Of a stretch of DNA of 63,147 nt, positions 14,228 to 58,162 are shown in pieces. Below the pieces are notes generated by a model. That model was not told where the DNA came from. It saw nothing but the letters and a program-made list of their open reading frames with translations, and made no database searches. Each line of letters begins with the position of its first letter. Within the stretch, counting starts at the first letter, position 1. A program made the position numbers and the translations under genes. The stretch covers positions 1 to 63,147 of the forward strand of contig CAVVMJ010000008.1 of assembly GCA_963749445.1 (NCBI GenBank), in the 5' to 3' direction. The stretch is from an uncultured bacterium. GTDB taxonomy: Bacteria; Patescibacteriota; Doudnabacteria; UBA920.

Positions 14228-14950
14228 ATGCCTATGCTTCTTATCAAAGTCCAAAATCTCACCAAAGATTACGTCAACGAAGGCGTGGTGACGCCGGTGT
14301 TGCACGGCGACAGCTTTACCATTGACAGCGGGGAGTTTGTGGCCATAATGGGACCTTCAGGCTCCGGCAAATCCACTTTGATGCACATTTTGAGCTTTTT
14401 GGACCGGCCGACTGCCGGCCTGTATGAGTTTGAAGGCAAAAATACCCAAGAATTTCCGGATGATTATTTGGCCGAACTGCGGAACGAACGCGTTGGTTTT
14501 GTGTTCCAGTCGTTCAATCTTTTGGCCCGCACCACGGTGCTGGACAACGTCAAACTGCCCCTTATTTACAGCAAAAAAAAAAATCACGATTATCTGGCCA
14601 AACAGGCGCTGGAAGCGGTCGGGCTGTCGCACCGTCTGGATTATTACACCAACCAGATTTCCGGCGGGGAAAAACAGCGCGTGGCCATTGCCCGGGCTTT
14701 GGTTTGCGACCCGGCCGTAATTTTTGCCGACGAGCCGACGGGCAATTTGGACAGCAAAAGCGGCAACGCGGTTATGGAAATTTTGCAAAATCTGAACAAC
14801 CAGGGACGCACCATTATTTTAGTGACCCACGAAATGGATACGGCCAACCATGCCAAACGGATTATCCGCATCAAGGACGGCCAGCTGGTTGACGACCAGC
14901 CGGTGTTAAAGCGCACCATCGCCACGGCGGAGAGAGAATTGGTTAAGTAG
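14228..14950 (+). CDS. MacB/LolD-type ABC transporter ATP-binding protein
   Basis: Walker [10 protein letters not shown], signature [15 protein letters not shown], Walker [12 protein letters not shown]. Confidence 0.9.
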
Positions 14951-15057
14951 TAATCGCAAATATACAAATTTAGACAAATTTACAAATCCTCAGGTGAAAC
15001 CGTCCGCAGGTTTGTCATTTGTATATTTGTGTTGATTTGTATATTTGGGAACACTAC
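14947..15057. repeat. word-hairpin element, family A copy 1
   Basis: Termini GTAGTAATCGCAAATATACAAAT / ATTTGTATATTTGGGAACACTAC. Arms are built from TACAAAT words. Spans stop 14948-50 to 3 nt before ATG 15060. Confidence 0.8.
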
Positions 15058-17712: not shown

Positions 17713-17808
17713 TCTCTACTAAATACTAAAATATACTAAAGGTACTAAATACTAAACTGGCAAATAGGAGTTTAGTATTTTTAGCATCCTTTCGTATTTA
17801 GTAGAAGG
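17713..17808. repeat. word-hairpin element, family B copy 1 (ACTAAAT words)
   Basis: About 85% identical over its full length to 54687..54780. Starts right after stop 17710-12. Confidence 0.8.
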
Positions 17809-22277: not shown

Positions 22278-22334
22278 GAAAAGATTTAAGATTCAGGATT
22301 TAAGATTTTAGAATTTCGTGCAGATACAATTGTG

Positions 22335-25350: not shown

Positions 25351-25356
25351 TGTATA

Positions 25357-31738: not shown

Positions 31739-31880
31739 AACCTCTAAACCTCTAAAAATTAAACAAAATCCAAACCACGAACTATAACAATATAAACGGA
31801 ATAAAGATTTTGGTTTATAATTTGAAATTTTAGATTTTGTGATTTGTTTAGATTTTCGAAAGTTTAGTATTTAGACTTTG
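31739..31880. repeat. word-hairpin (CTCTAAA / TTTAGA words)
   Basis: Fills the spacer from the lepB stop (31732-34) to the hisS ATG (31889). Confidence 0.6.
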
Positions 31881-31888
31881 ATAAAGCC

Positions 31889-33186
31889 ATGGGACGACAT
31901 AAAAAAACCGTTTCGGGGTCGGCATATTTGCCCAAAAAAATCCATGGTCTGGAGGGAGCTGCGGATATTATTGCCGAAAACGACATCCTTTGGGAAGCGG
32001 TGCTCAAGAGGCTGAACCGCGATTAGCCGGACTTACGGTTTTAGCCGGATTGAAACGCCGCTTTTGGAAGACGTCCATTTGTACGAAAGTTTTTACCAAA
32101 ATCACCAGGCGGAAAGCGCCGGGCTTTTGCGCACCGAGGTTTCCGGCCGGCCGGCGGCTTTGCGGCCCAGCCTTTTGCCCTCGGTGTTGCGCTGTTACTA
32201 TCAGTATAAAATTTTTGAAAAACAGCCTTTGAGCAAGTGGTATTACGCCGGTTGGACCAACCGGCAGGGCGTGCGCGGCGCGCTTACGAGCAACTATGAA
32301 TATGGATTTGAAGTCCTGGGCAGTTTCGGTCATTTGGCCGAAGCCCAGCTCATTGGCGCCGTCTGGGAATTGCTGAAATCTTTGGGACTGTCTACAGTTG
32401 CCCTGGAAATTAATAATATTGGGCAGGAAGCTTGCCAAATAGCTTATCAGGACAGTTTAAAAGATTATTTGCTCGGCAAAAAATATCAGCTGTGCGATTC
32501 CTGCAACGAAGCTTTGACCATTAGGCCCCTGAATGTTTTCCGCTGCGGGAATTTGGACTGCCAGGCGCTGCTTTCCGAAGCGCCGACTGTGCTGGATTTT
32601 CTGGATGTAGACAGCCGCAAACATTTTACCGGAATTTTGGAAGCTTTGGATGAACTGGGCGTGCCTTATCAGTTAAACCCGCTTTATGCCGGCACGGATG
32701 GCCACAGCCAGACTAATTTTGTCATAAAGTATAAAGACAAAAACGGCAGCAAAGTCCTGGGCGAGGGCGGCAGTCACGAAGGTTACATGCAGCATCTTTG
32801 CGGCAAGAACCACCGCAGCTTTGGTTTTACAGGCAGCGCCAGCCGCTTGCGGGAACTGTTGGAGCAGTCTAAGACCCAAGTCTACAGGGAGCAAAAGAGC
32901 GATGTATTTTTGGTGCCGTTGGGCGAACTGGCTTCCAAAAGAAGCCTGCGGCTTGTTCCGCGACTTGACTGCCGAACAGGTTGCGGTTTATGATCACTTT
33001 GGCGACAGCGGCGTCAAAAACCAGCTTAAGCAGGCGCAAACTTTCAACGCGCCCATAGCTCTGATTATGGGCCAAAAGGAAGCCATGGACGAGCTGGTAA
33101 TTCTGCGTGACGTCAAAAGCGGGATGCAGGAAATCATTTCTTATGATAAAATAGTGGCAGAGGTGAAGAAGCGCTTAGGCCGCTGA
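31889..33186 (+). CDS. hisS: histidyl-tRNA synthetase-like protein; several frame breaks
   Basis: LRPSLLPSVLR and a C-terminal anticodon-binding-like domain. Breaks at ~32025 and ~32940. A motif-2-like RLDQPAGRARR is readable only in another frame at ~32245..32300. Confidence 0.65.
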
Positions 33187-33864: not shown

Positions 33865-33965
33865 AGTTAACAATAAGAATAACCATAACGAGAACTTTTG
33901 ACGGAGTTGTTATGGCTTTTTTGTTGTTATTGTTGCGACAGTGTTTTATTAAAATAGCACGGTGT

Positions 33966-34431: not shown

Positions 34432-34505
34432 AAGTATAAAGTTATCAAGTTATAAAGTAATTCAGGCAAAACAACTTTATAATTTCAATTTATAACTTTA
34501 TAACT
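34432..34505. repeat. word-hairpin (TATAAAG / CTTTATA words)
   Basis: The right arm ends at the nucleotide before ATG 34506. Confidence 0.6.
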
Positions 34506-35062: not shown

Positions 35063-36317
35063 ATGACGCAAAGAACATACATTGTCGGTCTGGATGTCGG
35101 CACCGCCAACATCCGTGCGGTGCAGGCTAAGCTTGACCAGGACAAGCAAGAGTTTTCAGCGTCATCGGCGCCAGCGAAGTGCCGAGCCAGCGGCATCCGC
35201 CGCGGCGTAATTATTGACATTGAGGAAGCGGTCTCCAGCATCTCCGTGGCTTTGGAAAAAGTGGAGCGCATGACCGGCGTGCCCGTGGAGTCGGCTAACG
35301 TGTCCATCGGCGGCAGCCATATTTCTTCGCAGGCCAGCCACGGCGTCATTGCGGTTTCGCGCGCCGACGGCGAAATTATGGAAAATGACATTGTCCGCGC
35401 CGTGGACGCCTCGCAGGTCATTTCCATTCCGCAAAACAAGGAAGTTCTGCACGTTTTTCCAAAAAGTTTTATTTTGGACGGCCAGACCGGCATTAAGGAT
35501 CCGTTGGGTATGAGCGGCATTCGGCTGGAAGTGGACACGATTATCGTTCAGGCCGGGCTGCCGTTTGTCAAAAATTTGACCAAGGCCATTATGCAGGCCG
35601 GTATGGAGATTGATGATTTGGTTTTGGCGCCCTGCGCCGCGGCCGAGGCGGTTTTGAGCAAGCGGCAAAAAGATTTGGGCGTGGCTGTGGTGGATTTGGG
35701 CGCGGGCACCACGTCTTTGGCCGTATTTGAGGAAGGGGATTTGCTGCACACGGCGGTGATCCCTATTGGCCAGATGCACGTGACCAACGACGTGGCTATT
35801 GGTTTAAGATGTTCCATTGACACGGCGGAAAAAGTCAAACTGATGTTCGGGCACTGCGACCCAAAAGCCGTGGCCAAGGACGAAGAAATTGATTTGTCCA
35901 AAATTGACTCTACGGAAACCGAAACCACTTTGCGCGGCTTATGTGGTGGAAATTATTGAAGCCAGAATGGAAGAAATTTTTGATCACGTTAACGCGGAGC
36001 TCAAAAAAATCAGCCGCGACGGCAAATTGCCTTCCGGCGTGGTGCTTACCGGCGGCGGCAGCAAACTGCCGGGCGTGGTGGATTTTGCCAAAAAACATTT
36101 GCGCCTGCCGGCTTCGGTGGGCAAGCCGCAAAACATCAACACCATAATTGACCGCGTGGACGACCCGGCCTTTGCCACGGCCGTTGGCCTGGTGTTCTGG
36201 GGCGGCCGGTTCTCCACTTCCGCCGGCAAAAATCAGTTCGGCGGCCTGGTGAAAAATTGGTTGCAAAACCCGAACGTAGCTAAATTTCGCAAGTGGATGA
36301 AGTCGTTCTTACCTTAG
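35063..36317 (+). CDS. ftsA: cell division protein FtsA; one frame break
   Basis: IVGLDVGTANIR, DLGAGTTSLAVF, VLTGGGSKLPG. Break at ~35930. Confidence 0.9.
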
Positions 36318-36628: not shown

Positions 36629-37846
36629 ATGTCCAAAAAAATGGAAGTCAAACCAAAAATTGAAACTTTCGCCCGGATTAAGGTTTTGGGCATTGGCGGC
36701 TCCGGCACCTCGGCCGTTAACCGTATGAGCCAGCTGGGCATTAAGGGCGTGGAATTTATCAGCATCAACACCGACGCCCAGGCGCTTCATAACAACCAGG
36801 CTGACCGCAAGGTGCACATTGGCAAGGGCATTACCAAGGGCCTCGGCAGCGGCATGAACCCGGAACTTGGGCGCCAGGCGGCCGAAGAAAGCGTGGAAGA
36901 GCTGGAAGAAGTGGTGGATAACGCCGACATGGTGTTTATTACCTGCGGCCTGGGCGGCGGTACCGGCACGGGCGCGGCGCCGATTTTGGCCGAGCTGGCC
37001 AAAAACAAAGGCGTGCTCACCGTGGCCGTGGTCACCAAGCCGTTTACCTTTGAAGGCAGCAAGCGCAAGGAAGTGGCCGAAACCGGTTACGAAAACCTAA
37101 AGGACAAAGTGGACGCCATAATTTCCATCCACAACGACCGCATTTTGCAAATTATAGATAAAAAAACCTCACTCATTGAGGCGTTTAAAACCGTGGACGA
37201 AGTGCTGCGCCAGGGCATTGCCGGCATCTAGGATTTGATTACCACGCACGGTTTGGTCAATGCCGACTTTGCGGACGTGCGCAGCATTATGCAGGACGCG
37301 GGCACGGCGCTAATGGGCATTGGCAGGGCCTCAGGCGAAAAGCGCGCCCAGGACGCGGCGCGTATGGCCATTAATTCGCCGCTGCTGGAAATGACCATAG
37401 ACGGCGCCAAAGGCGTGCTGTTTAACATTACCGGCGGGCCAGAATTTGGGCATGTTTGAAATTGACGAAGCCGCCAAAGTCATTACCAAGAGCATAGATC
37501 CGGACGCCAAGGTCAAGTTCGGCGCGGTTATAGACGAAAGCATGGGCGATGAAATCCGCATTACCGTAATTGCCACGGGTTTTGACGAAGGCAACCGCCG
37601 TCCCATGCCGGTGCAACTGCCGGTCAGGGAAGAGCCCAAAAAGCCCTTACTGGATCCGCGCGGTCAAGCTCCGGCCCAGCCGCCTATGGAAGCCAGGAAG
37701 CCCTTGTTCCTCCCCAGCCGGCTCAGCCGTTCCATTTGCCGCCGCCGCAATCCATTCAGCCGATCACCCGGCCCACGCCCGAAGACCCCGCGGCTTCGGA
37801 TGACGAACTAGACATTCCTGCGTTCATCCGTAAAAAAATGAAGTAG
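36629..37846 (+). CDS. ftsZ: cell division protein FtsZ; in-frame TAG plus two frame breaks
   Basis: [18 protein letters not shown]-terminal [14 protein letters not shown] at 37229..37231 sits at the conserved GI(S/A)DLI position. Breaks at ~37445 and ~37715. Confidence 0.9.
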
Positions 37847-38683: not shown

Positions 38684-38764
38684 GAATTGAAAGATTGAAA
38701 ATTTAATGATTGAAAGATTCCTAATCTTTCAATATTTCAATCTTTTAATCATTCAATAATCTTA
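38684..38764. repeat. word-hairpin (GATTGAAA / TTTCAATC words)
   Basis: Starts right after stop 38681-83. Confidence 0.65.
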
Positions 38765-38765
38765 A

Positions 38766-38799
38766 AACTCCCCGGTTGTGCCCCCGGGGAGTTTTTTTG
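38766..38799 (+). terminator. intrinsic terminator
   Basis: ACTCCCCGG-ttgtgcc-CCGGGGAGT followed by TTTTTTT. Confidence 0.75.
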
Positions 38800-39358: not shown

Positions 39359-39806
39359 ATGCGTTGTCCCAATTGTGAAAATGAAGATACCAAGGTCTTA
39401 GACAGCCGACCGGTGGACGATGGCGGACGCTATCCGTCGCCGGAGGGAATGCGATAAGTGTGAGTTCCGTTTTAGCACTTATGAGGAAATAGAAATTCTG
39501 GATTTATCAGTCTTAAAGAAAGACGGCCGCAAACAGCCGTTTTCCAAGGAAAAGCTGGAGCGGGCCATCCGCCTGCCAATGGACAAGCGGCCGCATACCG
39601 ACGAAACTTTGCGTAAATTGTTATCAGGGATTGAAATAGAAGTCCAGCGCAAGGCTAAGGACGGGGAGATTAAAAGTTCGGACATAGGCGAGATCGTGAT
39701 GAAAAAGCTGAAAAAAGTGGACAAGGTCGCTTACATCCGCTTTGCCGCCGTTTACCGCCAGTTTGAGGATGTGGAGGAGTTTAAGGAAGAACTTAAGAAG
39801 CTATAG
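39359..39806 (+). CDS. nrdR: transcriptional repressor NrdR; one frame break
   Basis: Zinc ribbon MRCPNCENEDTKVLDSRPVDDG, then AIRRRRECDKC and an ATP-cone. 1-nt break at ~39427. Confidence 0.85.
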
Positions 39807-39910
39807 CTTCTCCTACGAACTTACGAACGGAGCGAACTACGAACTGCCGGTAAAATCCAAAGTAATTATGAGTTCGTAGTTCGATAAAGTTCGTACGTTC
39901 GTAGGGAAGG
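39807..39910. repeat. word-hairpin (TACGAAC / GTTCGTA words)
   Basis: Starts at the nucleotide after the nrdR stop (39804-06). Confidence 0.75.
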
Positions 39911-39949: not shown

Positions 39950-42677
39950 ATGCCTACCCAAATCAAAGAAAACCTGCAAACCCGCAAAATCAACGCATTG
40001 TCCGAATTGGGAGAAAAAATTTTTTTGGACCGCTATGCGGTTAAAGATATGAAGCGTGAAACTTTGGCAATTGGCGATACCGTGGTGGTTTTGGTAAATC
40101 CCAAAACCGGCCAGCGCGAGATCGGCGTCGTTGAGACTTTGGATTTGGCCAAGCGCGAAGTCCGGTGCGCATGAGAGACGGCGACTTGGAAAGCGCGCCA
40201 TTGATCACGTGGACAAACCGTTGGAGACCGTGCCGGAGCAGATGTTTGAACGCGTCGCCCACCACATTGCCAGCGTGGAAAAAACCGCGGAAAACAGCAA
40301 GAATGGGAAGTAAAATTCCGCGAAATGATGGACGACTGGAAGTACGTGCCGGCCGGCCGGATTTTTACCGGCGCCGGTACCGGCCAAAATTTGACTTTTT
40401 ATAACTGTTACGTTCTGCCCTGCCCGAAAGATCCCGCGGCGGTATTTTTAAGGCCTTGGCCGATATGGCGGAAATTATTTCCCGCGGCGGCGGCGACGGG
40501 CATGAATGTTTCTACCTTGCGTCCCAAGTACTCTTATGTCAAGGGAGTCAACGGCAGAAGCAGCGGTGCGGTATCCTGGGCATCGCTCTATAGTTTTGTC
40601 ACCGGCTTGATTGAGCAGGGCGGTAGCCGCAGGGGGGCCTTAATGCTGATTTTAAATGTTTGGCATCCGGATATTATTGATTTTATCAATTCCAAAAAAG
40701 AAGCGGGGAAAATTGAAAACGCCAATATTTCCGTCGGCATTACCGATGATTTTATGGAAGCGGTCAAAAACGACCGGCCCTGGGATTTGGTTTTTCCCGA
40801 CACTTCCGATCCGCTTTACGACAGCCGTTGGCAGGATTGCCAGGGCGACATTCGCAAGTGGCAGAAGTTAGGCGGCAAAGTTGTTAAGCATAAGACCGTA
40901 AGGGCCCAGGATATTTGGACTAGCATTATTGAATCGGCCCACGCCAGCGCTGAGCCGGGCATGTATTTTATTGACCGCGCCAACTATTATTCCAATTCGC
41001 ATTATTATGCCAGCTTGCCTTGCACTAACCCCTGCGGCGAGCAGCCCTTGCCGGCCTGGGGCGTGTGCAATTTGGGCCATGTGAATTTGGCCAAACACGT
41101 CAATAAAGATACCAAGGAAGTTTTGTGGAATGATTTAAAAACTACGGTACAGCAGGCCGTGCGTTTTCAGGATAATGTGATTGACGCGACCCCGTATTTT
41201 TTTGAGGAAAATAAAAACCAGCAAATGTCCGAGCGGCGCGTTGGGATGGGCACCATTGGTTTGGCGGAAATGCTGATTCATTTGGGTTTGCGCTACGGTA
41301 GCCCCGAGGGCGTGGAATTTATAGATAAACTCTACCAGTTTATTGCCATGACGGCTTACGAAACCTCCGTGGAATTGGCGCGCGAAAAAGGCGCATTCCC
41401 GAAGTTTGAAGCCGAAAAGTTTTTGGAGAGCGGCTACATGAAAAATATGCCGGCTTACATCCGCGATTTGGTGGCGCAGTATGGCATCCGCAACGTGACC
41501 ATTCTGACCCAGGCGCCGACCGGCACCGTGGGCACCATGGTCGGTACGTCCACGGGTATTGAGCCGTTTTTTTCCTGGACGTATTTCCGCAAATCCCGTT
41601 TGGGTGTGCACGAGGAAAAAATCAAACTCGCGGCCGACTGGCAGGAAAAGCATCCCGGGGCCAGAGTTGCCCGATTATTTTGCCACGGCTATGGACTTAA
41701 GCCCGGAAGAGCACGTGCGCGTGCAGGCCGCGGTCCAGCGCTGGACCGACAGCGCTATAAGCAAAACCGTGAACGCCCCGGCCGACTACTCCGTGGAGCA
41801 GACCAAGCAGCTATATACTTTAATGTATGATTTGGGCTGCAAGGGCGGCACGATTTACCGCGATGGTTCGCGTGACGAGCAAATACTCGCGACCGATCAC
41901 AAAAAATTGGGCAAGGACGCTTCTGACCAGGTGGAAGATAAAATGGCGAAAGACGCTTCGGATCAGGCCGCGGTCAAGATAGAGCAGCCAAAGGAAGTAA
42001 TGTCGGTTATGGGCGACAACGTGCAAATAAAATTTGCGCCGCGCACCCGGCCGGATATGATGCAGGGCATTACTTACAAAATGAACACGGCGTACGGTAA
42101 TTTGTACGTTACGGTTAACGAAGACGAGCAGGGGCCGTTTGAGGTCTTTGCGGCCATGGGCAAGGCCGGCGGTTTCTTTAGCGCGCAGACAGAGGCGATT
42201 ACCCGGATGATTTCTTTGGCACTTCGGTCCAACATGGCCATACAGGAAGTTATTGCGCAATTAAAAGGCATCCGCGGGCCGGACGTGTCGTTCTCGGAGG
42301 ACGGCATGGTTTTTAGCCTGCCGGATGCCATTGCCAAAGTTTTGGAAAAACATATTAAGCGCGGCGAAAAGCAGTTGGCGCTGGATCTTCCGACAACTGA
42401 TGTGGGGGCCGCGCTTGCGCGCCCGTCATCGGAAACGGGCGGCCAAGGCCAACCCCTACAAAGCGAAACAGTGATGAAAATGGAAGAACAAATTACCGAA
42501 CAAGTCACGGTGGAAGAAAAAATCAAGACCAACGGGCATATGACCTACAAAACTACGCAAAAAGTTTCCATTGCCAATTTGGGTAACGCGCCGGTCTGCC
42601 CGGCCTGCGCCAATATGCTGGTCATGGCAGAAGGATGCATGAAATGTGAGTTTTGCGGGTACAGCAAGTGCGGGTAA
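39950..42677 (+). CDS. nrdJ: class II (adenosylcobalamin-dependent) ribonucleotide reductase; at least 6 frame breaks
   Basis: YVPAGRIFTGAG, NCYVLP, GGSRRGALM, TNPCGEQPL, QAPTGT, C-terminal CPACANMLVMAEGCMKCEFCGYSKCG. Breaks at ~40165, ~40191, ~40305, ~40432, ~40493 and ~41655. Confidence 0.85.
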
Positions 42678-44377: not shown

Positions 44378-45024
44378 ATGGTCGTATATTTTATTATCAT
44401 CTTGGCGATTATTACACGTTTTATCCCGCACATGCCAAACTTTGCGCCGATTACGGCGTTGGCGATTTTTTCTGCTGCCAATTTGGGCTGGAAAAATCCG
44501 TGGCTTTGACTTTGGCCGTAAGGTTCGCCAGCGATATTTTTTTGGGTTTCTTTGCGTGGCCGCTGATGCTGGCGGTTTACGCCTCTCATTTGGCCGGCGT
44601 GCTGTTTGGGGTTTGGATTGCACGATCCTCCAGAGTCGTCATTCCGAGCGACCCTTCACTTTCTTTCGCATTAGAAAGTGTAGGGGAGCCGAGGAATCCC
44701 TTATCGACGAATGTTAAGGGATCCCTCCGCTCCTCGGCTGCACTCGTCGGTCGGGATGACACAGCTAAGAAATGGCTTAAAATCTTTGGTTCGTCTTTGG
44801 CGGCCTCAATCATCTTTTTCCTTGTCACCAACTTCGCGTTTCTTTACGGAACCTATCCGCATAACATCACAGGCATTATTGCGGCTTATACAAACGGCCT
44901 GCCATTTTTCCGCGGCACTTTGTTTGGCGATTTGGCTTATACAGTTGCTTTGTTTGGCAGTTATGAATTCGCGCGATATTTGGCGCAGCGGCCAAAAAGG
45001 CAACATTTAAAAAATCTCGCTTAA
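44378..45024 (+). CDS. polytopic membrane protein (possible vitamin-transporter S-component-like); one frame break and a 41-codon repeat insertion
   Basis: N-terminal RFIPHMPNFAPITALAIF. Break at the A5 run ~44490. Hydrophobic helices lie on both sides of the insertion. Confidence 0.55.
44638..44760. repeat. 123-nt palindromic element (family D-like) in frame inside CDS
   Basis: Termini GTCATTCCGAGCGA ... TCGGTCGGGATGAC. 123 nt = 41 codons (VVIPSDPSLSF...LVGRDD). Confidence 0.75.
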
Positions 45025-45051
45025 AGCGGGATTTTTTTGTATAATCAAGTT

Positions 45052-45275
45052 ATGACAAAAATAACCGTAATCGCGCATCCCAATTCCAAACGCCCAGGAT
45101 AGACAAAGACCTGCTCGGCACTTTGAACGTTTACGTCAGCGAGCCGCCTCTGGAAGGGCGGGCTAATGAAGCTGTGATAAAAGCGCTGGCCGGTTATTTT
45201 AACATCAGAAAATCCCAAATTCAATTAATCAGAGGCCACAAGTCCAGAATAAAATTTTTTGACATTAATCTCTAA
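45052..45275 (+). CDS. DUF167/YggU-like protein; one frame break
   Basis: LEGRANEAVIKALAGYF. Break at ~45100. Confidence 0.55.
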
Positions 45276-46737
45276 AAGTAAAATTTTTATCTGCTTGGCT
45301 ATAAATTTTGCCGCGGGTGTGTGGCTGGCGTCGCGGTTTTTTATTGCGGAAATTTATCCGCTGCTCGCAATGGCCGCGTCGGCCGTGGCGTTCGCTTTAA
45401 CTTATCAGCAAAAAAATAAGTTCGCGTGCCTGGCAGCGCTGATGCTGTTTTTTTGCGGCTTGGGCGCGCTGCGCCAAAATTTTTCCGTGGCGCCAAACCA
45501 ATACCAAAAGTTATTTGACACCAAGCAGCAACTGGAAGGCTATATCGTAGAGGATATTGATATGCGGCAGGCCAACCAATTTTTAACTATCCAGCCCAAA
45601 GGTTTTGGCCAAAGAATCTTGGTGAGCGCGCCGACTACGGCCGATTATTTTTACGGCGACTGGGTGGTAGCAAGCGGCAAAATCCAGCAGCCGCAGAATT
45701 TTGACGATTTTGACTATCAAAAATATCTGGAGCGCTACAATGTTTACGCCACAATGAGCTATCCGAAAATTTTGGTGCTTAAGGGTCATCAACAAAATTT
45801 TGTCAAAGAGTGGCTGTTGGACATTAAATGGGCGTTTACGCGCCGCGTGGACAAGCTTTTGCCCGAACCGCAAAGCAGCTTGCTTATGGGAATTTTAATC
45901 GGCGCGCGTAAGACTTTGCCGCCCGATGTGGTGAATAATTTTAATGCCACGGGCGTGTCGCACGTGATTGCCATTTCCGGTTATAACATCACTATTATAG
46001 TTTCCGCTTTGGGTTACGCGCTGTATTTTTTGGGTCGGCGCTCCAGGTTTTGGCTGACTTTGGGGGTTATCGTGGGATTTGTCATTTTATCCGGCGCGTC
46101 GGCTTCGGTAATCCGCGCCGCGATTATGGGCGGGCTGGTTTTGCTATCGGCTATCATCGGCCGCCAATATAGTGTCGGGCCGTCCCTGTTTTTTGCCGCG
46201 CTGATTATGCTCCTGCTCAATCCGAGAATTTTATTTTGGGACGCCAGTTTTCAGTTGTCGTTTTTGGCGACCTTGGGCATTGTTTATTTTTTGCCTCTGC
46301 TGGAACGTTTGACGGATAGATGGGATAACGTTTTGAACATCAAAAGCATCTTGCTTACGACTTTATCCGCGATTTTATTTACCCTGCCGCTAATTTTGTT
46401 CACGTTCGGCCGGCTGAGCGTGGTGGCGCCTTTAGTCAACATTTTGATTTTGCCGATTGTGCCGCTGACCATGCTGCTCGGATTTTTAACCGTCCTACCG
46501 GTGGTCGGGGCGGGCTGCGCTTTTGCGGTCAGTTTGTTTTTAAGATATATGTTAAGCGTTACCGCGGCGTTCGCGCACGTGCCTTACGGGAGTTTGGCAA
46601 TGAAAATTTCGCAATATGATTTTTTGGCGCTGGGGCTGGGCGTGTTGTTTTTATATGTTTGGCTGAAGCGGATGGTTGTTAAGAGATTGAATCATAATGA
46701 TACAGTACAGGTTACCGGCCCGTTTATGTCCTCGTAG
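45259..46737 (+). CDS. comEC: ComEC/Rec2-family competence channel protein
   Basis: Polytopic protein with NATGVSHVIAISGYNITI, a ComEC core motif. TTG start as in the ORF track. Confidence 0.8.
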   Translation: MTLISKSKIFICLAINFAAGVWLASRFFIAEIYPLLAMAASAVAFALTYQQKNKFACLAALMLFFCGLGALRQNFSVAPNQYQKLFDTKQQLEGYIVEDIDMRQANQFLTIQPKGFGQRILVSAPTTADYFYGDWVVASGKIQQPQNFDDFDYQKYLERYNVYATMSYPKILVLKGHQQNFVKEWLLDIKWAFTRRVDKLLPEPQSSLLMGILIGARKTLPPDVVNNFNATGVSHVIAISGYNITIIVSALGYALYFLGRRSRFWLTLGVIVGFVILSGASASVIRAAIMGGLVLLSAIIGRQYSVGPSLFFAALIMLLLNPRILFWDASFQLSFLATLGIVYFLPLLERLTDRWDNVLNIKSILLTTLSAILFTLPLILFTFGRLSVVAPLVNILILPIVPLTMLLGFLTVLPVVGAGCAFAVSLFLRYMLSVTAAFAHVPYGSLAMKISQYDFLALGLGVLFLYVWLKRMVVKRLNHNDTVQVTGPFMSS

Positions 46738-46791
46738 GGGAGGGTTTCCACCTACGCCAGGCTTCGGCGGACAAGTAAAACCCTCCCCTAC
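46734..46791. repeat. hairpin with 14-nt arms over the comEC stop codon
   Basis: GTAGGGGAGGGTTT ... AAACCCTCCCCTAC. The loop carries CCTACGCCAGGCTTCGGCGGACAAG, also seen at ~52125. Confidence 0.65.
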
Positions 46792-46889
46792 AATGCAGGG
46801 CATACATCAGCGGACGATGAATGCCAGATCTGTTGCCCGATTGCCGATTTCCTGATAAAATAATCAAAGGTTGATTAAAAAAAGAATTT

Positions 46890-47675
46890 ATGTCTAACAG
46901 AGCCCTTATTATTAGCATCATTGCGATTGTGGTCGTGTTTGCCGGCGTGGTAGCAATTGTCCGCTACCAGAATAACAAACAGATTAGCGGCACGCAGGAA
47001 AACCAGTCGGCAGAGCAGCTGGCTAATCAGAACCCTCCCAATCAAGCGCCGGCCAGTCCCGCGGAAACCGCGCCCAGTTCCACGCCACCCACGGCGATGT
47101 CCACCGCGGCCAACGAAACCTGCCAGCGGGATTTTAACGCCGGCAAGTTGGCAAAAAATTCCAGTCTCAGTTTGGCCAATCGTGAAGTGACAATTAACGT
47201 TAAAGATTTTGGCGATATTACTTTGCAGTTTTACGATAAAGACGCGCCCAAGGCTGTGGAGAATTTTTTGCGGCTCGCCGACAGCGGCTATTATGATTGT
47301 TTGACTTTCCACCGCGTGGCCAAAGGTTTTGTTATCCAGGGCGGCGACCCGAACGGCGACGGCAGCGGGGGGCAATCGGCTTTCGGCGCTCCGTTTGCCG
47401 ACGAATTAAATCCGGATACTCCATCGTATAAGGCGGGTTACGTAAAAGGCGTGCTGGCCATGGCCAACAGCGGCCCCAACACCAACGGCAGCCAGTTCTT
47501 TATTATGCTGGGCGACGTGCCGCTTGATCATAAGTACACGATTTTCGGCAAAGTTACCGTTGGGCAGGATGTGGTGGATAAAATCGGTCAGGTTGATATT
47601 ACGCCGGTTATGGGCCCTACTGATGGGTCGCCGAAAACGCCGGTGGTAATGCAATCGGTTAAGATCATTAAATGA
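46890..47675 (+). CDS. cyclophilin-type peptidyl-prolyl isomerase with N-terminal membrane anchor
   Basis: FHRVAKGFVIQGGDPNGDGSGG, GSQFFI. Confidence 0.9.
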   Translation: MSNRALIISIIAIVVVFAGVVAIVRYQNNKQISGTQENQSAEQLANQNPPNQAPASPAETAPSSTPPTAMSTAANETCQRDFNAGKLAKNSSLSLANREVTINVKDFGDITLQFYDKDAPKAVENFLRLADSGYYDCLTFHRVAKGFVIQGGDPNGDGSGGQSAFGAPFADELNPDTPSYKAGYVKGVLAMANSGPNTNGSQFFIMLGDVPLDHKYTIFGKVTVGQDVVDKIGQVDITPVMGPTDGSPKTPVVMQSVKIIK

Positions 47676-47701
47676 CAATCATTAATTAAATTTATAATAG
47701 T

Positions 47702-47815
47702 TGTCATCCCGGAATTTTTTACGCTGATGGTTATCGTAAGCCGTAAAAAATATCCGGGATCCAGTCAGGCCTGGTTCTGGATCCCGGTTCTCGGCTGCTA
47801 CTGCCCGGGATGACA
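47702..47815. repeat. family D element (full copy)
   Basis: GTCATCCCGG ... CCCGGGATGAC outer arms with inner AATTTTTTACG/CGTAAAAAATAT. Confidence 0.75.
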
Positions 47816-47826
47816 GGGAAAAAAAT

Positions 47827-48426
47827 ATGGACATAAACGAAAAAATCAAACAGGAAAAAACTTTGGTGCTGGTTAAGCCCGACGGCGTCAAAAGGGGACT
47901 TATTGGCGAAGTCGTTTCGCGCATTGAGCGGCGCGGCCTAAAAGTCATTGCCATGAAAATGGTGCAGGTCGGCGACGAGCACATTAAAAATCATCTTCCC
48001 AAGAGCGACGAATGGATGGAGCGTTTGGGCAACAAGACGTTGAAGACTTTCGCGGAATACGGCATTGACGCGATGGAAGCGCAGGGCACGACCGACCCCA
48101 AAGAAATCGGCAAAATGGTCAAGCACGCGCTGGTGGAATATTTAACCGGCGGGCCGGTGGTGGCCATGGTGGTGCAGGGCATCCACGCCATTGATATGGT
48201 GCGCAAGCTGGCGGGTAACACTTTGCCGGTGTTCGCGGAAATGGGTACCATCCGCGGCGATTATTCCGTTGACTCGCCGTCAGTGGCCAACGTAGAACGT
48301 CGCGCCATCCATAACATTATGCATGCCAGCGAAACCATTGAAGAGGCCAACAATGAAATCAGTTTGTGGTTTACCCCGTCAGAAATTCACGCTTACAAGA
48401 GAGCAGAAGAGGATATAATGTTTTAA
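47827..48426 (+). CDS. ndk: nucleoside-diphosphate kinase (long form)
   Basis: EKTLVLVKPDGVKRGLIGEV and NIMHASE (active-site His region). Confidence 0.85.
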   Translation: MDINEKIKQEKTLVLVKPDGVKRGLIGEVVSRIERRGLKVIAMKMVQVGDEHIKNHLPKSDEWMERLGNKTLKTFAEYGIDAMEAQGTTDPKEIGKMVKHALVEYLTGGPVVAMVVQGIHAIDMVRKLAGNTLPVFAEMGTIRGDYSVDSPSVANVERRAIHNIMHASETIEEANNEISLWFTPSEIHAYKRAEEDIMF

Positions 48427-48434
48427 GCACGAAT

Positions 48435-48728
48435 ATGAATATCCATTTAAAAATTTGGATTCCTGGTTTACTGTCGTTTTTTACCTTTTTGATTTACAAA
48501 GGTTTACAATTGCATCCAGGCCCAAGAATCGAAGTTCAACCCACGTTTTGGTTCTTTGTAACGCTCATACTGCAGCTACTTGCAGCTTGGTATGCTTATA
48601 AACTGCTAAAGATTAAAAATCGTTCCGGTACCTGGATCGGCCTGGTAGTTGTCATAGGCTTATTGGGTATTATTATAGTTGAATTGCTGCCTGCCAAGAA
48701 AATTATCCCTCCGCCTGTTTCGGTTTAA
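48435..48728 (+). CDS. small membrane protein (97 aa)
   Basis: ATG 48435 and three hydrophobic helices. Confidence 0.5.
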   Translation: MNIHLKIWIPGLLSFFTFLIYKGLQLHPGPRIEVQPTFWFFVTLILQLLAAWYAYKLLKIKNRSGTWIGLVVVIGLLGIIIVELLPAKKIIPPPVSV

Positions 48729-48738
48729 TATCAATTTA

Positions 48739-48774
48739 AAAAGGACTGTCCTTGCTGCAAGGGCAGTCCTTTTG
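48739..48774 (+). terminator. intrinsic terminator
   Basis: AAGGACTGTCCTT-gctgc-AAGGGCAGTCCTT followed by TTT. Confidence 0.65.
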
Positions 48775-48937
48775 CATTCAGCGACCCATCAGCATACATA
48801 TCAGCATCAATTCAGCGGAAAGAGATCCTTTGGCCGGCCTGTGATAATCATCATGCGGCCTCAGATGACGCCGCTATTTTTAATTGTAGAGGTGGCGTCA
48901 CTTTTTTGCGAAAAAATCTCGGTAGTTTTAAAAATTC

Positions 48938-48970
48938 TTCCCTTTTTTCACATATGTGAAAAAAAGGAAA
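48938..48970. repeat. CACATATGTG-core palindrome, family F copy 1
   Basis: CCCTTTTTTCACAT|ATGTGAAAAAAAGG. It lies 3' of rel. Confidence 0.7.
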
Positions 48971-48980
48971 CAAAGTTATA

Positions 48981-50490: not shown

Positions 50491-50596
50491 TAACCCGCCT
50501 AAACTTTGCCCATTTTATTGGGCAGGCTTAATTATCAACGATATATGATTATAGTAAAAGCTTTTGTAGTTTTCCCGCAAAGTTTTGGCGGGTAAA
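50490..50596. mobile_element. 107-bp MITE-like element, family G copy 3
   Basis: TTAACCCGCCTAAACTTTGCCC ... GCAAAGTTTTGGCGGGTAAA. It abuts the rel start codon. Confidence 0.6.
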
Positions 50597-50640
50597 GGTA
50601 TTATACCAGTAGTAAGGGGGATAGGGGAATGGTATAATTG

Positions 50641-50730
50641 GATTGACAAGATTGACATGATTGAGCAAGATTGACAAGATTAAGGACGCAGCAAAAAATC
50701 ATGTCAATCTTTTAAATCTTGTTCAATCAT
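50641..50730. repeat. word-hairpin (GATTGACAA / TTGTCAATC-type words)
   Basis: Lies between a TGgTATAAT box (50630..50638) and the mutM ATG (50734). Confidence 0.7.
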
Positions 50731-50733
50731 CCA

Positions 50734-51712: not shown

Positions 51713-51772
51713 CAATTAACGATTGACAATTAACGATTAACAGGGGACAATGAAAATAGAAAGGAAAATAAG

Positions 51773-52066: not shown

Positions 52067-52073
52067 AAAATAT

Positions 52074-52364
52074 ATGCAAGACGCTAATCAAAATGAATTA
52101 AATCAGCCGATGCAAACATCGGGGCCCTCCTACGCCGAGGCTTCGGAGGACAAGCAAATCAGAAAGCCAACCACCGATGAAATGCTGTTGGCGATATACA
52201 ATAATACGCGCAAGACCATGAACTATATGAAGTGGTCGCTGTATATTACCATTGTGCTCGTTGTTCTGCCGCTGCTTGCGATGATCGTCCTGTTGCCGTT
52301 GGTGTTGAAGTCGCTGGGCACGCTTGGCGGAATTTATGGGGCAGGGGGGGTACTGTCGCAGTAG
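52074..52364 (+). CDS. hypothetical membrane protein (96 aa)
   Basis: ATG 52074 and a C-terminal double helix. The N-terminal PSYAEASEDK is encoded by a CCTACGCCGAGGCTTCGGAGGACAAG repeat motif. Confidence 0.5.
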   Translation: MQDANQNELNQPMQTSGPSYAEASEDKQIRKPTTDEMLLAIYNNTRKTMNYMKWSLYITIVLVVLPLLAMIVLLPLVLKSLGTLGGIYGAGGVLSQ

Positions 52365-52485
52365 TAATCGCAAATATACAAATCAATACAAATATACAAA
52401 TAGCTGCACAGTGGGTTGAAGTTTTAATCAAGCGTTTACAGGGGATTTGTATATTTGTTAAAATTTGTATATTTGCGAACACTAC
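52361..52485. repeat. word-hairpin element, family A copy 2
   Basis: Same 23-nt termini as 14947..15057. Spans stop 52362-64 to 1 nt before ATG 52487. Confidence 0.8.
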
Positions 52486-52486
52486 T

Positions 52487-52834
52487 ATGACTGACGAAAA
52501 ATGGCAACAATTGGTGGAGACGGCGCAAAAGAATTTTAAGGGCGCAAAATTATATGCCGAAGATTTGATTTTGGAAACGTCGGATGGGCCGCAAAAAAAG
52601 GGCACGCAGGACGTGCTGGAATTTGGTTTGCCGCAGGGCGGGAAATATAAGTTGGTTCGTGAGAATAAGCCCATCGTCCTGGAAAAAAAGGAATTGTATT
52701 CCCACCGCGCCGGGCAGAGCGCGCAAACCCAGTATAAATTTTCGGAGACGGAGTTTTCCCATCGGCTACGCGTCTACAAAGAGGTGGATTTTGACGATTG
52801 GGAGGAAGTAACGTTGGATACTTTAGGTTTGTAG
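52487..52834 (+). CDS. hypothetical protein (115 aa)
   Basis: ATG 52487. The track ORF extension upstream runs through the repeat and is unlikely to be real. Confidence 0.5.
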   Translation: MTDEKWQQLVETAQKNFKGAKLYAEDLILETSDGPQKKGTQDVLEFGLPQGGKYKLVRENKPIVLEKKELYSHRAGQSAQTQYKFSETEFSHRLRVYKEVDFDDWEEVTLDTLGL

Positions 52835-54667: not shown

Positions 54668-54686
54668 TGTTCTAGTAATTAATTTT

Positions 54687-54780
54687 TCTACTAAATACTA
54701 AATTATACTAAAGGTACGAAATACGAAACTGGTATTCATCAGTTTAGTATATTTAGTACTCTTTCGTATTTAGTAGAAGT
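54687..54780. repeat. word-hairpin element, family B copy 2
   Basis: About 85% identical to 17713..17808. It lies in the groES 5' leader. Confidence 0.8.
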
Positions 54781-58064: not shown

Positions 58065-58162
58065 AATCGAATCTACGAATGGAACGAATCAACGAATCCC
58101 TACGAAGTACGAATTCGTTGTTCGTAGAGATTCGCAGATTCGTCTAATTCGTTGATTCGATT
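58065..58162. repeat. word-hairpin (ACGAATC / GATTCGT words)
   Basis: Centred on the CGAATTCG palindrome at ~58113. Related direct words lie at ~56890 and ~58270. Confidence 0.7.

What the first reader, a model, noticed from the sequence alone, without database searches (positions are those of the whole stretch)
39807..39910. General architecture: intergenic hairpins whose arms are tandem 7-10-nt words, with a different word at each locus
At at least 12 loci the spacer between co-directional genes is occupied by a 75-140-nt hairpin. The left arm is 3-5 degenerate tandem copies of a short word and the right arm is the reverse-complement word. The words and loci are:
- TACGAAC (39807-39910)
- ACGAATC (58065-58162)
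- TACAAAT (14947, 16342, 52361)
- ACTAAAT (17713, 54687)
- TTACTAA (55100-55193)
- CTCTAAA (31739-31880, 60003-60126)
- GATTGAAA (38684-38764)
- GATTGACAA (50641-50730)
- TATAAAG (34432-34505)
Most start within 0-3 nt of the upstream stop codon, and several end within 0-10 nt of the next ATG. They lack the G+C-rich stem and U-tract of the classical terminators, which are also present in this window (for example 38766-38799). A conserved architecture combined with non-conserved sequence implies either a generative mechanism (slippage plus inverted duplication) or selection on structure alone.
Basis: partly seen in the sequence, partly recalled or inferred. Interest (0 to 1): 0.7.

Follow-up and report, generated by a model that had tools for sequence, protein, structure and literature searches.

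The report
Word-built hairpin repeats between genes
The gaps between genes in this tiny uncultured bacterium (Candidatus Doudnabacteria) hold about 100-base hairpins built from repeated 7-9-letter words; these prove to be many multi-copy repeat families that fill operon junctions, even between ribosomal-protein genes, and whose words are kept by selection.

Summary
All 13 listed loci, plus one more at 33868-33935, are imperfect palindromes whose arms are tandem 7-9-nt words. Twelve of 14 hairpins tested fold far better than shuffles (z -3.8 to -9.5). A word-based detector finds 11 in the window and none in shuffles.

The window is from a Candidatus Doudnabacteria (CPR) genome. The interpretation needs correcting. 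The words are not locus-specific. Each belongs to a dispersed multi-copy family shared across related genomes, often at non-orthologous junctions. One family gave more than 120 metagenome matches.

Copies fill the spacer from the stop codon (median 4 nt) to the next ATG (median 17 nt), or start just after a promoter. In one related contig they occupy all 12 junctions scored between S10 and L5.

Occupancy of a junction is conserved across species while the family is swapped. Retained arms are 91% identical, against 72% at third codon positions and 57% in loops. There is no covariation, and the central word position is usually mismatched.

Best reading: REP/MITE-like foldback modules, co-transcribed and under selection. 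Their RNA-level role (processing, stability or translational coupling) is inferred, not shown. This is a new variant of a known kind.

The parts
39807..39910 (.). Focal hairpin, word TACGAAC (4 per arm). It starts right after the nrdR stop codon (TAG 39804-39806) and ends 40 nt before the nrdJ ATG (39950).
   Evidence: z -8.5
14947..15057 (.). TACAAAT-family hairpin (GTAGTAATCGCAAAT...GAACACTAC). Its own TAG (14948-14950) ends the macB ATPase gene. The permease ATG follows 2 nt after the stem.
   Evidence: z -6.5; paralogue of 52355-52491; similar copy in L081
16342..16450 (.). TACAAAT-word hairpin between the two MacB-type permease genes (stop 16339-16341, next ATG 16459).
   Evidence: z -6.3
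17713..17807 (.). Family 1 (TCTACTAAATACTAAA...GTATTTAGTAGA) hairpin right after the permease stop (TAA 17710-17712). It lies upstream of the NADH-dehydrogenase-like gene (ATG 17853).
   Evidence: z -6.1; orthologous copy in L133
31739..31880 (.). Composite hairpin with CTCTAAA outer words between lepB and the hisS fragment. It is the weakest of the listed loci.
   Evidence: z -2.3
33868..33935 (.).
34432..34505 (.). TATAAAG / AAAGTT-word hairpin. The same word family occurs in L092 and L147.
   Evidence: z -4.9
38684..38764 (.). GATTGAAA-word hairpin that overlaps the stop codon of the 38258-38683 gene. A classical terminator (38764-38795) follows directly.
   Evidence: z -4.6
50641..50730 (.). 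GATTGACAA-word hairpin in the fpg leader. It begins 3 nt after a TATAAT box (50633-50638) and ends 3 nt before the fpg ATG (50734).
   Evidence: z -3.8; hairpin at the same position in about 10 relatives
52355..52491 (.). TACAAAT-family hairpin, paralogue of 14947. Its TAG (52362-52364) ends the upstream ORF, and an ATG follows the stem directly.
   Evidence: z -9.5
54686..54779 (.). Family 1 hairpin in the groES 5' leader. It lies about 19 nt after the -10 box of a consensus promoter (54640-54667) and 15 nt before the groES ATG (54794).
   Evidence: z -6.1; same family at this position in L127, and fam-1 copies aligned from L112 and L117
55098..55204 (.). Family 2 hairpin (CTTTACTAACTACTAAT...) that fills the groES|groEL spacer (stop 55097-55099, groEL ATG 55210).
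   Evidence: z -7.2
58065..58162 (.). ACGAATC-word hairpin about 1.2 kb downstream of groEL.
   Evidence: z -8.4; related copy about 1 kb downstream of groEL in L012; 93.9% identical copy in L147
60003..60126 (.). Composite hairpin (outer CTCTAAA, inner TAAACAAA words) that ends 11 nt before the nusB ATG (60138).
   Evidence: z -6.3
22281..22312 (-). Single-arm tandem array (AAGATTT on +, AAATCTT in the gene's sense) that ends 4 nt before a minus-strand ATG. It has no inverted partner and may be a related half-form.

Best explanation
**What they are (shown).** The hairpins are copies of many dispersed foldback-repeat families. These families are typical of a subclade of Candidatus Doudnabacteria (CPR/Patescibacteria).
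- Each copy is an imperfect palindrome of 70-140 nt.
- Each arm holds 3-5 copies of a family-specific 7-9-nt word. Words are separated by unconserved spacers of 0-5 nt.
- The central loop is unconstrained.
- Copies fill the whole gap between a stop codon and the next start codon, or sit just downstream of a promoter's -10 box.
- The words are under purifying selection.
- A given junction stays occupied across species, while the family occupying it is exchanged.

**How they work (inferred).**
- They must be transcribed as part of the mRNA, where they can fold into long, regularly interrupted stem-loops.
- I infer that they act after transcription as interchangeable stem-loop modules in intercistronic spacers and leaders.
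- Possible roles are barriers or processing sites that set the stability of mRNA segments, and stems that hide the next gene's initiation region. A ribosome finishing the upstream gene would melt the stem base and expose that region.
- They spread by a DNA-level copying route that leaves no target-site duplication.
- The tandem words reflect unit slippage, or repeated recognition units for an unidentified word-reading factor, or both.
For: **Real and non-random.**

**Lineage.** GroEL is 73-91% identical to Doudnabacteria/Patescibacteria MAGs. The detector is 8-fold enriched in relatives over other phyla.

**Families.**
- Paralogues exist within the window.
- Family 2 sits at four different junctions in three genomes.
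- Family 1 gave more than 120 metagenome stretches: 95 copies, 89 of them unique, with up to 3 per 9 kb.
- The metagenome loci hold 81 further hairpins of many word families, including most window word families.

**Placement.**
- 64 of 81 family-1 copies lie between co-directional genes.
- The median distance from stop codon to element is 4 nt, and from element to ATG 17 nt.
- Window promoters lie immediately upstream of two copies.
- All 12 junctions scored from S10 to L5 in L145 are occupied.

**Occupancy conserved, family swapped.**
- The groES|groEL spacer is occupied in 13 genomes by roughly 9 different words.
- At L22|S3 there is a clean replacement: GCGGAA family in L145, family 1 in L146.
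- Other ribosomal-protein junctions show the same pattern.

**Selection.**
- Between L145 and L146, retained arms are 136/149 identical. Third codon positions are 466/642 identical (p 3.5e-7) and loops 30/53.
- Inner family-1 words are 87% exact TAC[G/T]AAA. Spacers show 51 variants among 168, and loops 78 variants among 79.
Against: - No expression or processing data exist. The RNA-level role rests only on position.
- There is no covariation.
- G.U and A.C mismatches are equally common (8 against 7). Nothing therefore marks the sense RNA as the selected form.
- The central word position is usually mismatched and restricted to G/T opposite A/C. This looks more like word recognition than selection for pairing.
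- No transposase or other mobilising gene was found. The one IS200-type TnpA, in L108, has its own different hairpins.
- Tight stop/start geometry is also what any insertion into a 20-30-nt spacer would give.
- The genome is poor in Shine-Dalgarno motifs everywhere, so their absence after hairpins says nothing.
- The ribosomal-operon loci were fetched because they hold family-1 copies. That is an ascertainment bias.
Confidence: 0.5

Rival explanations
1. Purely selfish non-autonomous mobile DNA (MITE/REPIN-like) with no host function. Arms are conserved because mobility needs them. Junctions stay occupied because few sites tolerate an insertion and old copies are overwritten by new ones.
For: - Multi-copy, dispersed families are shared at non-orthologous sites.
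- One family is cleanly replaced by another at a single junction.
- A hairpin copy is 93.9% identical between contigs, while the coding DNA of other related contigs is 67-79% identical to the window.
- Copies occur in both orientations (33:13).
- Some copies overrun stop codons and add C-terminal tails to L4, S3 and L5.
Against: - Orthologously retained copies keep their arms at 91% identity against 72% at third codon positions. Selection at the element level does not explain this for resident copies.
- The groES|groEL junction is occupied in all 13 close relatives (window plus L001-L012), and every scored ribosomal-protein junction in L145 is occupied. That is hard to get from tolerated junk in a genome of roughly 1 Mb.
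- No target-site duplication and no transposase were found.
- Paralogous copies share identical arms but have strongly diverged loops, unlike a recent copy-and-paste burst.
Confidence: 0.22
2. DNA-level arrays of binding sites. Each word is a duplex site for a small DNA-binding protein. Heptad arrays in direct and inverted orientation are bound this way by omega/ParG-type ribbon-helix-helix proteins, and IHF/HU binding was guessed for similar paired repeats in Geobacter metallireducens. Arm complementarity would then be only a by-product of inverted site orientation.
For: - Words are conserved while spacers and loops are free.
- The central position is restricted to G/T (K) and is not compensated on the other arm. 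K degeneracy is typical of protein read-out (my own knowledge).
- There is no covariation.
- Both orientations occur.
- The Geobacter precedent is in PMC2700814.
Against: - A 63-kb window holds at least 9 word families and the related contigs many more. This would need many cognate proteins in a very small genome.
- Sites lie inside highly expressed operons at every junction, where bound proteins would block RNA polymerase.
- Irregular word spacing is mirrored between the arms. A hairpin register needs this; independent sites do not.
- No candidate binding protein was seen in the window.
Confidence: 0.13
3. De novo generation at each locus. Slippage makes a tandem array, an inverted duplication (template switch) mirrors it, and selection keeps only the fold. 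No dispersal is involved.
For: - The same architecture appears with unrelated, even G+C-rich, words in distant phyla.
- Word number varies between copies, and one arm is expanded to 16 perfect units in L087.
- Both arms share the same irregular spacing and the same truncated word.
- Heptamers are the commonest long simple-sequence-repeat unit in prokaryotes, as cited in PMC4679880.
Against: - Most window families recur elsewhere, and for families 1 and 2, the TACAAAT family and the ACGAATC family the matches extend to the termini and the internal pattern of mismatches. This means common descent and spread, not independent birth.
- Spacers are not homogenised as slippage of word-plus-spacer units would predict.
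- Pairing is not what is conserved.
Confidence: 0.07
4. Unconventional transcription terminators or attenuators: A-rich 5' arm, U-rich 3' arm.
For: - The 5' arm is A-rich in 105 of 113 skewed cases. The 3' arm is therefore U-rich in RNA read from either strand.
- One copy sits at an operon end (38684).
Against: - They lie between groES and groEL, at every scored junction of a ribosomal-protein operon, and in 5' leaders. Termination there would be harmful.
- The copy at 38684 is followed directly by a classical terminator.
- They do not match the terminator scan.
Confidence: 0.05

Closest known systems
REP / BIME / REPIN elements of Proteobacteria
   Same: They are short imperfect palindromes in high copy number. 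They lie in intergenic DNA within or at the ends of operons, often within a few nt of stop codons. Families are lineage-specific, stems are conserved and loops variable, and there is no target-site duplication. They are known to act in mRNA as stabilisers (my own knowledge; PMC3116915 and PMC3733652 were listed).
   Different: REPs are single 20-40-nt palindromes with a GTAG or CGTC head, tied to a RAYT transposase. Here the arms are 30-50 nt of tandem 7-9-nt words with unpaired spacers. Many families coexist in one small genome. Only some carry CTAC...GTAG ends, and no RAYT was found.
Paired tandem-repeat sites of Geobacter metallireducens (Aklujkar et al. 2009, PMC2700814)
   Same: The architecture is the same: 3-5 tandem 7-9-nt repeats (GTTGCTYN, TCTCCGTS[Y], MTYCTGA) paired with an inverted set on the other strand at a variable distance. 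There are 8-24 pairs per class, in intergenic sites including one inside an operon (proB-proA).
   Different: The words are unrelated and the phylum is different. They were described only in supplementary figures and guessed to be IHF/HU sites. No analysis of turnover, selection or junction occupancy was made.
Correia (NEMIS) and ERIC elements, and pneumococcal BOX elements
   Same: They are MITE-like palindromic repeats of 100-150 nt that are co-transcribed into mRNAs. There they fold and are cut or bound by RNases, changing the stability of the flanking cistrons. BOX is modular, with a variable number of tandem boxB units (my own knowledge).
   Different: Correia has 26-bp terminal inverted repeats and a TA duplication. 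None of these elements has arms made of tandem heptamers. None is known to occupy nearly every junction of a ribosomal-protein operon.
MIRU (mycobacterial interspersed repetitive units)
   Same: They are repeats placed in intercistronic spacers of operons and built so that the stop and start signals of the flanking genes are preserved (my own knowledge).
   Different: MIRUs are direct tandem repeats of 46-101 bp that encode short peptides. They are not hairpins.
Foldback (FB) transposons of Drosophila and other eukaryotes
   Same: Their inverted arms are themselves arrays of short tandem repeats. This is the nearest match in shape (my own knowledge; PMC3169594 was listed).
   Different: FB arms are of kilobase scale, the elements are eukaryotic, and some carry transposase genes. 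No relationship is implied.
TAACTGA and STRR heptamer direct repeats (Beggiatoaceae, cyanobacteria; PMC4679880)
   Same: They are intergenic tandem heptamers that often end 1 nt before a start codon. The window's single-arm arrays at 22281 and 23346 resemble these.
   Different: They are almost always direct repeats (1 inverted set out of 170) and use one word per genome, not many.

Membership tests
Intrinsic (Rho-independent) terminator | Short G+C-rich stem followed directly by a U-tract | tested here: not met
   Hairpin G+C is 19-44%. None is reported by the terminator scan, whereas 38764-38795 is.
Intrinsic (Rho-independent) terminator | Placed at ends of transcription units | tested here: not met
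   They lie between groES and groEL, at every scored junction of a ribosomal-protein operon, and in 5' leaders.
MITE | Terminal inverted repeats, small size, many dispersed copies | tested here: met
   Family 1 has 95 copies with fixed termini. Families are shared across genomes.
MITE | Target-site duplication flanking each copy | tested here: not met
   The flanks of 95 copies show only YY...RR extending the stem, with no direct repeat.
MITE | Cognate autonomous element with the same ends | tested here: inconclusive
   None is present in the roughly 2 Mb held. The IS200-type TnpA in L108 has different hairpins. Whole genomes were not available.
REP / REPIN | 20-40-nt palindrome with a conserved GTAG or CGTC head | tested here: not met
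   Arms are 30-50 nt of tandem words. CTAC/GTAG ends occur in some families (family 1, 14947, 39807) but not in GCGGAA, CACAGAT, ATCAGC and others.
REP / REPIN | Associated RAYT (Y1 transposase) gene in the genome | not testable with these tools
   Only fragments of the genomes are held. No RAYT is present among the window ORFs.
Transcribed palindromic repeats processed in mRNA (Correia/ERIC type) | Located inside transcription units | tested here: met
   They lie downstream of consensus promoters and between cistrons. This rests on position only.
Transcribed palindromic repeats processed in mRNA (Correia/ERIC type) | Cleavage or stabilisation of the transcript at the repeat | not testable with these tools
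   No transcript data are available.
Conserved structured RNA (Rfam-type family) | Base pairs supported by compensatory changes | tested here: not met
   RNAalifold on 29 family-1 copies gave 25 pairs with 0 compensatory changes and a covariation term of 0.06. Rfam gave no hit at gathering score and only generic hairpin hits below it.
Geobacter-type paired tandem-repeat sites | 3-5 tandem 7-9-nt repeats with an inverted set nearby, multi-copy, intergenic | tested here: met
   The architecture matches the description in PMC2700814. The sequences are unrelated.
TIGR arrays (TIGR-Tas) | Long arrays of about 36-nt units (edge repeat, spacer A, loop repeat, spacer B) next to a Nop-domain Tas gene | tested here: not met
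   The hairpins are single and dispersed. It is the words, not the spacers, that repeat. The Pfam scans returned only the families listed, none of them a Nop domain. The TIGR description was read.
Heptad operator / centromere arrays (omega, ParG type) | Contiguous 7-8-bp repeats in direct and inverted orientation in promoter or partition regions, with a cognate ribbon-helix-helix gene | tested here: inconclusive
   The repeat geometry is similar. However, the sites lie inside operons and no cognate gene was seen. Binding cannot be tested here.

The most novel reading that the evidence does not exclude
The hairpins form an operon 'punctuation' system. In this reading, a CPR lineage poor in Shine-Dalgarno motifs needs an exchangeable stem-loop cassette at most cistron junctions to mature or translate its polycistronic mRNAs. 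Each cassette supplies a stop codon, a hairpin and a leader. The cassettes would be read by a multimeric factor that recognises the heptamer words in register, with a G/T-tolerant centre. They would spread by a copying mechanism that leaves no target duplication and uses no recognisable transposase.
Probability: 0.18. Interest if true: 0.85.

Novelty: new variant of a known kind. Interest (0 to 1): 0.62.

Why it matters
CPR bacteria have genomes of roughly 1 Mb and are thought to carry little spare DNA. Yet about 2.3% of this window is word-built hairpins. In a related contig they sit at every scored junction of the S10-to-L5 ribosomal-protein operon.

Three things would follow if the hairpins are functional.
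- They would be a lineage-wide layer of post-transcriptional control in organisms that cannot yet be grown alone.
- They offer a natural case where the position of an element is kept while its sequence family is swapped.
- They give a defined, searchable signature for annotating these genomes, and they explain long 'empty' spacers in them.

If they are mobile, their spread without target duplications or a visible transposase points to an undescribed copying route.

The restriction of the central word position to G/T, usually mismatched, is a concrete handle for finding a binding factor.

Tried and rejected
1. **RNAfold sliding-window scan for long stem-loops.** It was far too permissive (235 hits), so I replaced it with a word-based detector.
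2. **Exact GroEL look-up for the source contig.** Not on record.
3. **G.U against A.C mismatch count and sense against antisense folding energy, as a test for RNA-level selection.** 8 against 7, and mixed energies. No signal.
4. **Nested insertion into older hairpins.** Flank complementarity of family-1 copies is no higher than in mismatched controls. Rejected for family 1, although a few composite hairpins exist (60003, L012 groES|groEL).
5. **Target-site duplications.** None.
6. **Link to an IS200/IS605 transposase.** A query sequence recalled from memory found one TnpA, in L108. It has its own different hairpins and lies 1.4 kb from a family-1 copy. I treat this as coincidence.
7. **TIGR-Tas arrays.** The unit structure does not fit and no Nop-domain gene is present.
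8. **Phage carriage.** Family 1 gave no match in viral contigs. The family-2 pattern had too short a gap range, so that negative is uninformative.
9. **Missing Shine-Dalgarno motifs after hairpins as support for translational coupling.** The whole genome is poor in these motifs, so this is not informative.
10. **Assembly artefact.** Rejected because the same families occur in many independently assembled contigs.
Full report
**Observation.** The focal locus 39807-39910 begins right after the nrdR stop codon. It reads CTTCTCC-TACGAAC-T-TACGAAC-GGAG-CGAAC-TACGAAC, then a loop, then GTTCGTA-GTTCG-ATAAA-GTTCGTA-C-GTTCGTA-GGGAAG. When the left arm is aligned to the reverse complement of the right arm, the words match exactly. 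So does a truncated third word. The spacers between the words do not match. All the other listed loci have the same build.

- Twelve of 14 hairpins fold far better than 200 dinucleotide shuffles (z -3.8 to -9.5). 31739 is weaker (z -2.3). An extra candidate at 28536 is not significant.
- I wrote a detector for a run of at least 3 copies of a 5-mer, spaced 6-16 nt, followed within 90 nt by a run of its reverse complement.
- It finds 11 loci in the window. It finds none in 30 block-shuffled windows, and one each when the partner is only complemented or only reversed.
- Together the hairpins make up 2.3% of the window.

**Source and context.** GroEL is 73-91% identical to that of Candidatus Doudnabacteria and other Patescibacteria MAGs.

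- The genes are ordinary housekeeping genes: macAB, topA, dprA, pth, der, lepB, hisS, ftsA, ftsZ, nrdR, nrdJ, comEC, ndk, relA, fpg, groES, groEL and nusB.
- Many of them are split by frameshifts. This suggests errors from a long-read assembly.
- The hairpins are nevertheless not artefacts. The same families occur in many independently assembled contigs.
- Rfam gives no hit at gathering score, and only generic miRNA-precursor-like hairpin hits below it.

**Families, not locus-specific words.** Within the window, 14947~52361, 17713~54687 and 31739~60003 are paralogous pairs.

- The groES|groEL hairpin of the window (family 2, CTTTACTAACTACTAAT...) recurs at three other junctions in L003 and L011. 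The arms are conserved and the loops unrelated.
- Family 1 is TCTACTAAATACTAAA...GTATTTAGTAGA. The window copies are at 17713 and 54687. In L001, L003 and L005 it occupies the groES|groEL spacer.
These gave 95 copies, 89 of them unique, with up to three per 9 kb.
- The 533 kb fetched in this way holds 128 detector hits, against 7 and 2 in the two controls. Of these, 81 are not family 1, so they were not selected for.
- These hits cover many word families, including most of the window's: CAAAT, CGAATC, TACTAAC, ATTGACA, AAAGTT and CTAAA/TAAAC.
- A copy in L147 is 93.9% identical to window 58059-58172. Other contigs that are syntenic with the window share only 66-79% nucleotide identity with it in coding DNA.
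- Density in relatives L001-L015 is 8-fold that in 64 loci from other phyla.
- Clear examples do exist elsewhere: Magasanikbacteria, Endomicrobium, Thiohalobacter and an Elusimicrobia MAG.

**Placement.** Of 81 family-1 copies with both flanks scored, 64 lie between co-directional genes. Seven lie between convergent genes and 10 between divergent genes.

- In 71 copies with a clear junction, the element starts a median of 4 nt after the stop codon (mode 2). It ends a median of 17 nt before the next ATG.
- Some families supply the stop codon themselves. The TAG within GTAGTAATCG does so at 14948 and at 52362.
- In L145, the GCGGAA family adds short tails to L4, S3 and L5.
- In the window, the groES copy starts about 19 nt after the -10 box of a perfect TTGACA-16-TATAAT promoter.
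- The fpg copy starts 3 nt after a TATAAT box and ends 3 nt before the fpg ATG.
- The hairpins must therefore be transcribed as part of mRNAs. This follows from position only.
- L145 is the ribosomal-protein operon from S10 to L5. All 12 junctions scored there hold such a hairpin, although two are weak.
- These loci were fetched because they carry family 1, so occupancy there may be overestimated.

**Position kept, family swapped.** Gene order from window 45000 to 60600 is conserved in the relatives.

- The groES|groEL spacer holds a word hairpin in the window and in L001-L012, with roughly nine different words. The more distant L013-L015 have short spacers without one.
- The fpg leader holds one in about 10 relatives. 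Some words drift (GATTGACAA, AATTGACAA, AAATGACAA). Others are unrelated.
- Within one genome, the same family sits in several spacers. Examples are L004 (TTATCC), L012 (TAGCGTT) and L003 (family 2).
- Between L145 and L146 (81% identical over the aligned 2.3 kb), the L22|S3 spacer carries the GCGGAA family in one and family 1 in the other. The replacement is clean, running from the stop codon to about 10 nt before the ATG.
- Other ribosomal-protein junctions show the same pattern across L106, L126, L140 and L147.

**What selection acts on.** Two hairpins are retained in both L145 and L146.

| Site class (L145 vs L146) | Identical / total | Identity |
|---|---|---|
| Hairpin arms | 136/149 | 91% |
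| Codon positions 1+2 | not tabulated | 94% |
| Codon position 3 | 466/642 | 72% |
| Hairpin loops | 30/53 | 57% |

Arms differ from third positions with p 3.5e-7, and from loops with p 1.2e-7.

- In family 1, the inner words were not fixed by the search pattern. On the left arm they are TACGAAA (90) or TACTAAA (57). On the right arm they are TTTAGTA (106) or TTTCGTA (26).
- Spacers show 51 variants among 168. Loops show 78 variants among 79.
- Fourteen different loci share nearly identical arms but have strongly diverged loops.
- Pairing itself is not what is kept. RNAalifold finds 25 pairs, none with a compensatory change.
- The central word position is G.A in 72 cases, U-A in 20, U.C in 16 and G-C in 1. 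Independence would predict about 11 G-C.
- These copies are related by descent, so the p-value for that contrast overstates the case.
- The same position flips between T and G in orthologous copies, while the other six positions stay fixed.
- G.U and A.C mismatches are equally common.
- Arms carry equal numbers of words in 60 of 89 copies.
- The 5' arm is A-rich in 105 cases and T-rich in 8. For a palindrome this holds on both strands, and it is unexplained.

**Mobility.** There are no target-site duplications. The flanks only extend the stem by YY...RR.

- Family-1 copies are not nested in older hairpins.
- No transposase is encoded in the window.
- The one IS200-type TnpA, in L108, has its own hairpins.
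- Family 1 is absent from viral contigs.
- Relative to the flanking genes, the search-pattern strand was opposite the gene strand in 33 copies and the same in 13 (p 0.0045).

**Interpretation.** These points are shown:
- The hairpins are dispersed repeat families.
- They lie in transcribed spacers.
- Their words are under purifying selection.
- Junction occupancy is conserved while families turn over.

These points are inferred:
- They act in the mRNA as interchangeable stem-loop modules.
- One possible role is as barriers or cleavage sites that set segment stability, as is known for REP, ERIC and Correia elements.
- Another is as stems whose base is melted by the ribosome terminating upstream, which would free the next initiation region.

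The stop/start geometry fits that second idea. It is also what any insertion into a short spacer would give. The general lack of Shine-Dalgarno motifs removes one possible argument for it. The conserved, uncompensated G/T centre of the words points to a factor that reads words rather than helices. That keeps a DNA-level or protein-binding reading alive. Slippage probably changes word number, but it cannot explain the shared families.

**Comparison with the literature.**
- The nearest published description of the shape is in the Geobacter metallireducens genome paper. It reports paired sets of 3-5 tandem 7-9-nt repeats on opposite strands, in 8-24 pairs per class, one of them between proB and proA. 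They were guessed to be IHF/HU sites.
- The TAACTGA heptamers of Beggiatoaceae are direct repeats.
- TIGR arrays, which are common in CPR, have a different unit structure.
- Searches of the held library found no description of these elements in CPR bacteria.
- I therefore file them as a new variant of the REP/MITE-like class. They are not members of any named family, because the defining features of MITEs (target duplication), REPs (short palindrome with a GTAG head) and terminators were tested and not met.

Noticed in passing
window 50719-51712; 36629-37811; 35063-36317; 40325-42677; 4972-7736; 16459-17712; 32064-32993: Many housekeeping genes are split into two or three ORFs by frameshifts, or start late. 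Affected genes are fpg, ftsZ, ftsA, nrdJ, the MmeI-type enzyme, the second MacB permease and hisS. The likely cause is indel errors from a long-read assembly rather than real pseudogenes.
   Followed up: partly
window 4972-7736 (-), within the low-G+C stretch 2000-9000: An MmeI-family restriction-modification enzyme (N-terminal, helicase-spacer, methyltransferase, TRD and C-terminal domains) lies in a region of 35-44% G+C. The neighbouring small ORFs have no family match, and the region holds no word hairpins. It may be a foreign island.
   Followed up: partly
window 54631-54657; also L002-L005, L007, L008, L010-L012 upstream of groES: A CIRCE-like inverted repeat, TTATCACTC-N9-GAGTGATAA, encloses the -35 TTGACA of the groES promoter. 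It is a variant of the canonical TTAGCACTC-N9-GAGTGCTAA, which is seen in L013 and partly in L001.
   Followed up: partly
window 19828-19909; L001 about 9480-9600: A different repeat family made of two small palindromes (GCCGATTTATCGGC and GCCCATAAATGGGC, followed by ACGCTAC). It is shared between the window and L001 at non-orthologous places.
   Followed up: no
window 48937-48970, 60600-60631, 61327-61370: Three copies of a near-perfect palindrome, TTCCTTTTTTTCACATATGTGAAAAAAAGGAA. They are flagged as terminator-like on both strands. They could be bidirectional terminators or an operator.
   Followed up: no
window 22281-22312, 23346-23369, 51710-51742, 59648-59679, 61387-61416: Single-arm tandem word arrays with no inverted partner: AAGATTT, GATTTAA, TAACAAT, AACGATT and GAGTTTATAA. 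Two of them end just upstream of minus-strand start codons. They resemble the TAACTGA-type direct repeats of Beggiatoaceae.
   Followed up: partly
window 25287-25750 and 25750-26160 (-): A 462-nt non-coding stretch with a 32-nt inverted repeat (25433-25542) lies next to a gene of the 23S-rRNA-intervening-sequence protein family. No Rfam match and no reverse transcriptase were seen nearby.
   Followed up: no
window 57726-58055: A near-consensus promoter (TTGACA-17-TATAGT, 57726-57754) is followed by about 300 nt that end in a hairpin plus T-run at about 58000-58052. This lies just before the 58065 hairpin. It contains a short ORF with a Shine-Dalgarno motif and is partly conserved in L001 and L006.
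   Followed up: partly
window 58497-58700: A G+C-rich, strongly folding stretch with no Rfam match.
   Followed up: no
L087 2011-2178: A hairpin whose right arm is expanded to 16 perfect copies of CCCTATTT, against 4 GGAAATA-type words in the left arm. It lies at a contig end. It is either direct evidence of unit slippage or an assembly break at a repeat.
   Followed up: no
L145 2839-2859, 6165-6207, 8903-8923: Ribosomal proteins L4, S3 and L5 read into the left arm of GCGGAA-family hairpins. This gives them similar C-terminal tails (...NAEKRGN / ...KRGI), and the stop codon lies inside the repeat.
   Followed up: partly
L108 142-597 (-): An IS200/IS605-type TnpA, 42% identical to an IS200 sequence recalled from memory, flanked by its own hairpins. 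It lies 1.4 kb from a family-1 copy.
   Followed up: yes
window-wide, e.g. 9228, 9843, 12600, 31125, 35063: Most genes lack a Shine-Dalgarno motif. Some have a TATAAT box only 7-20 nt before the ATG, which suggests leaderless or very short-leader mRNAs.
   Followed up: partly
window 50870-50906: An AAGTTATA-like tandem array (4.6 copies) lies in frame inside the fpg coding region (QVKSYKVIKFVKLLKG). It resembles the AAAGTT word family of the hairpin at 34432.
   Followed up: partly
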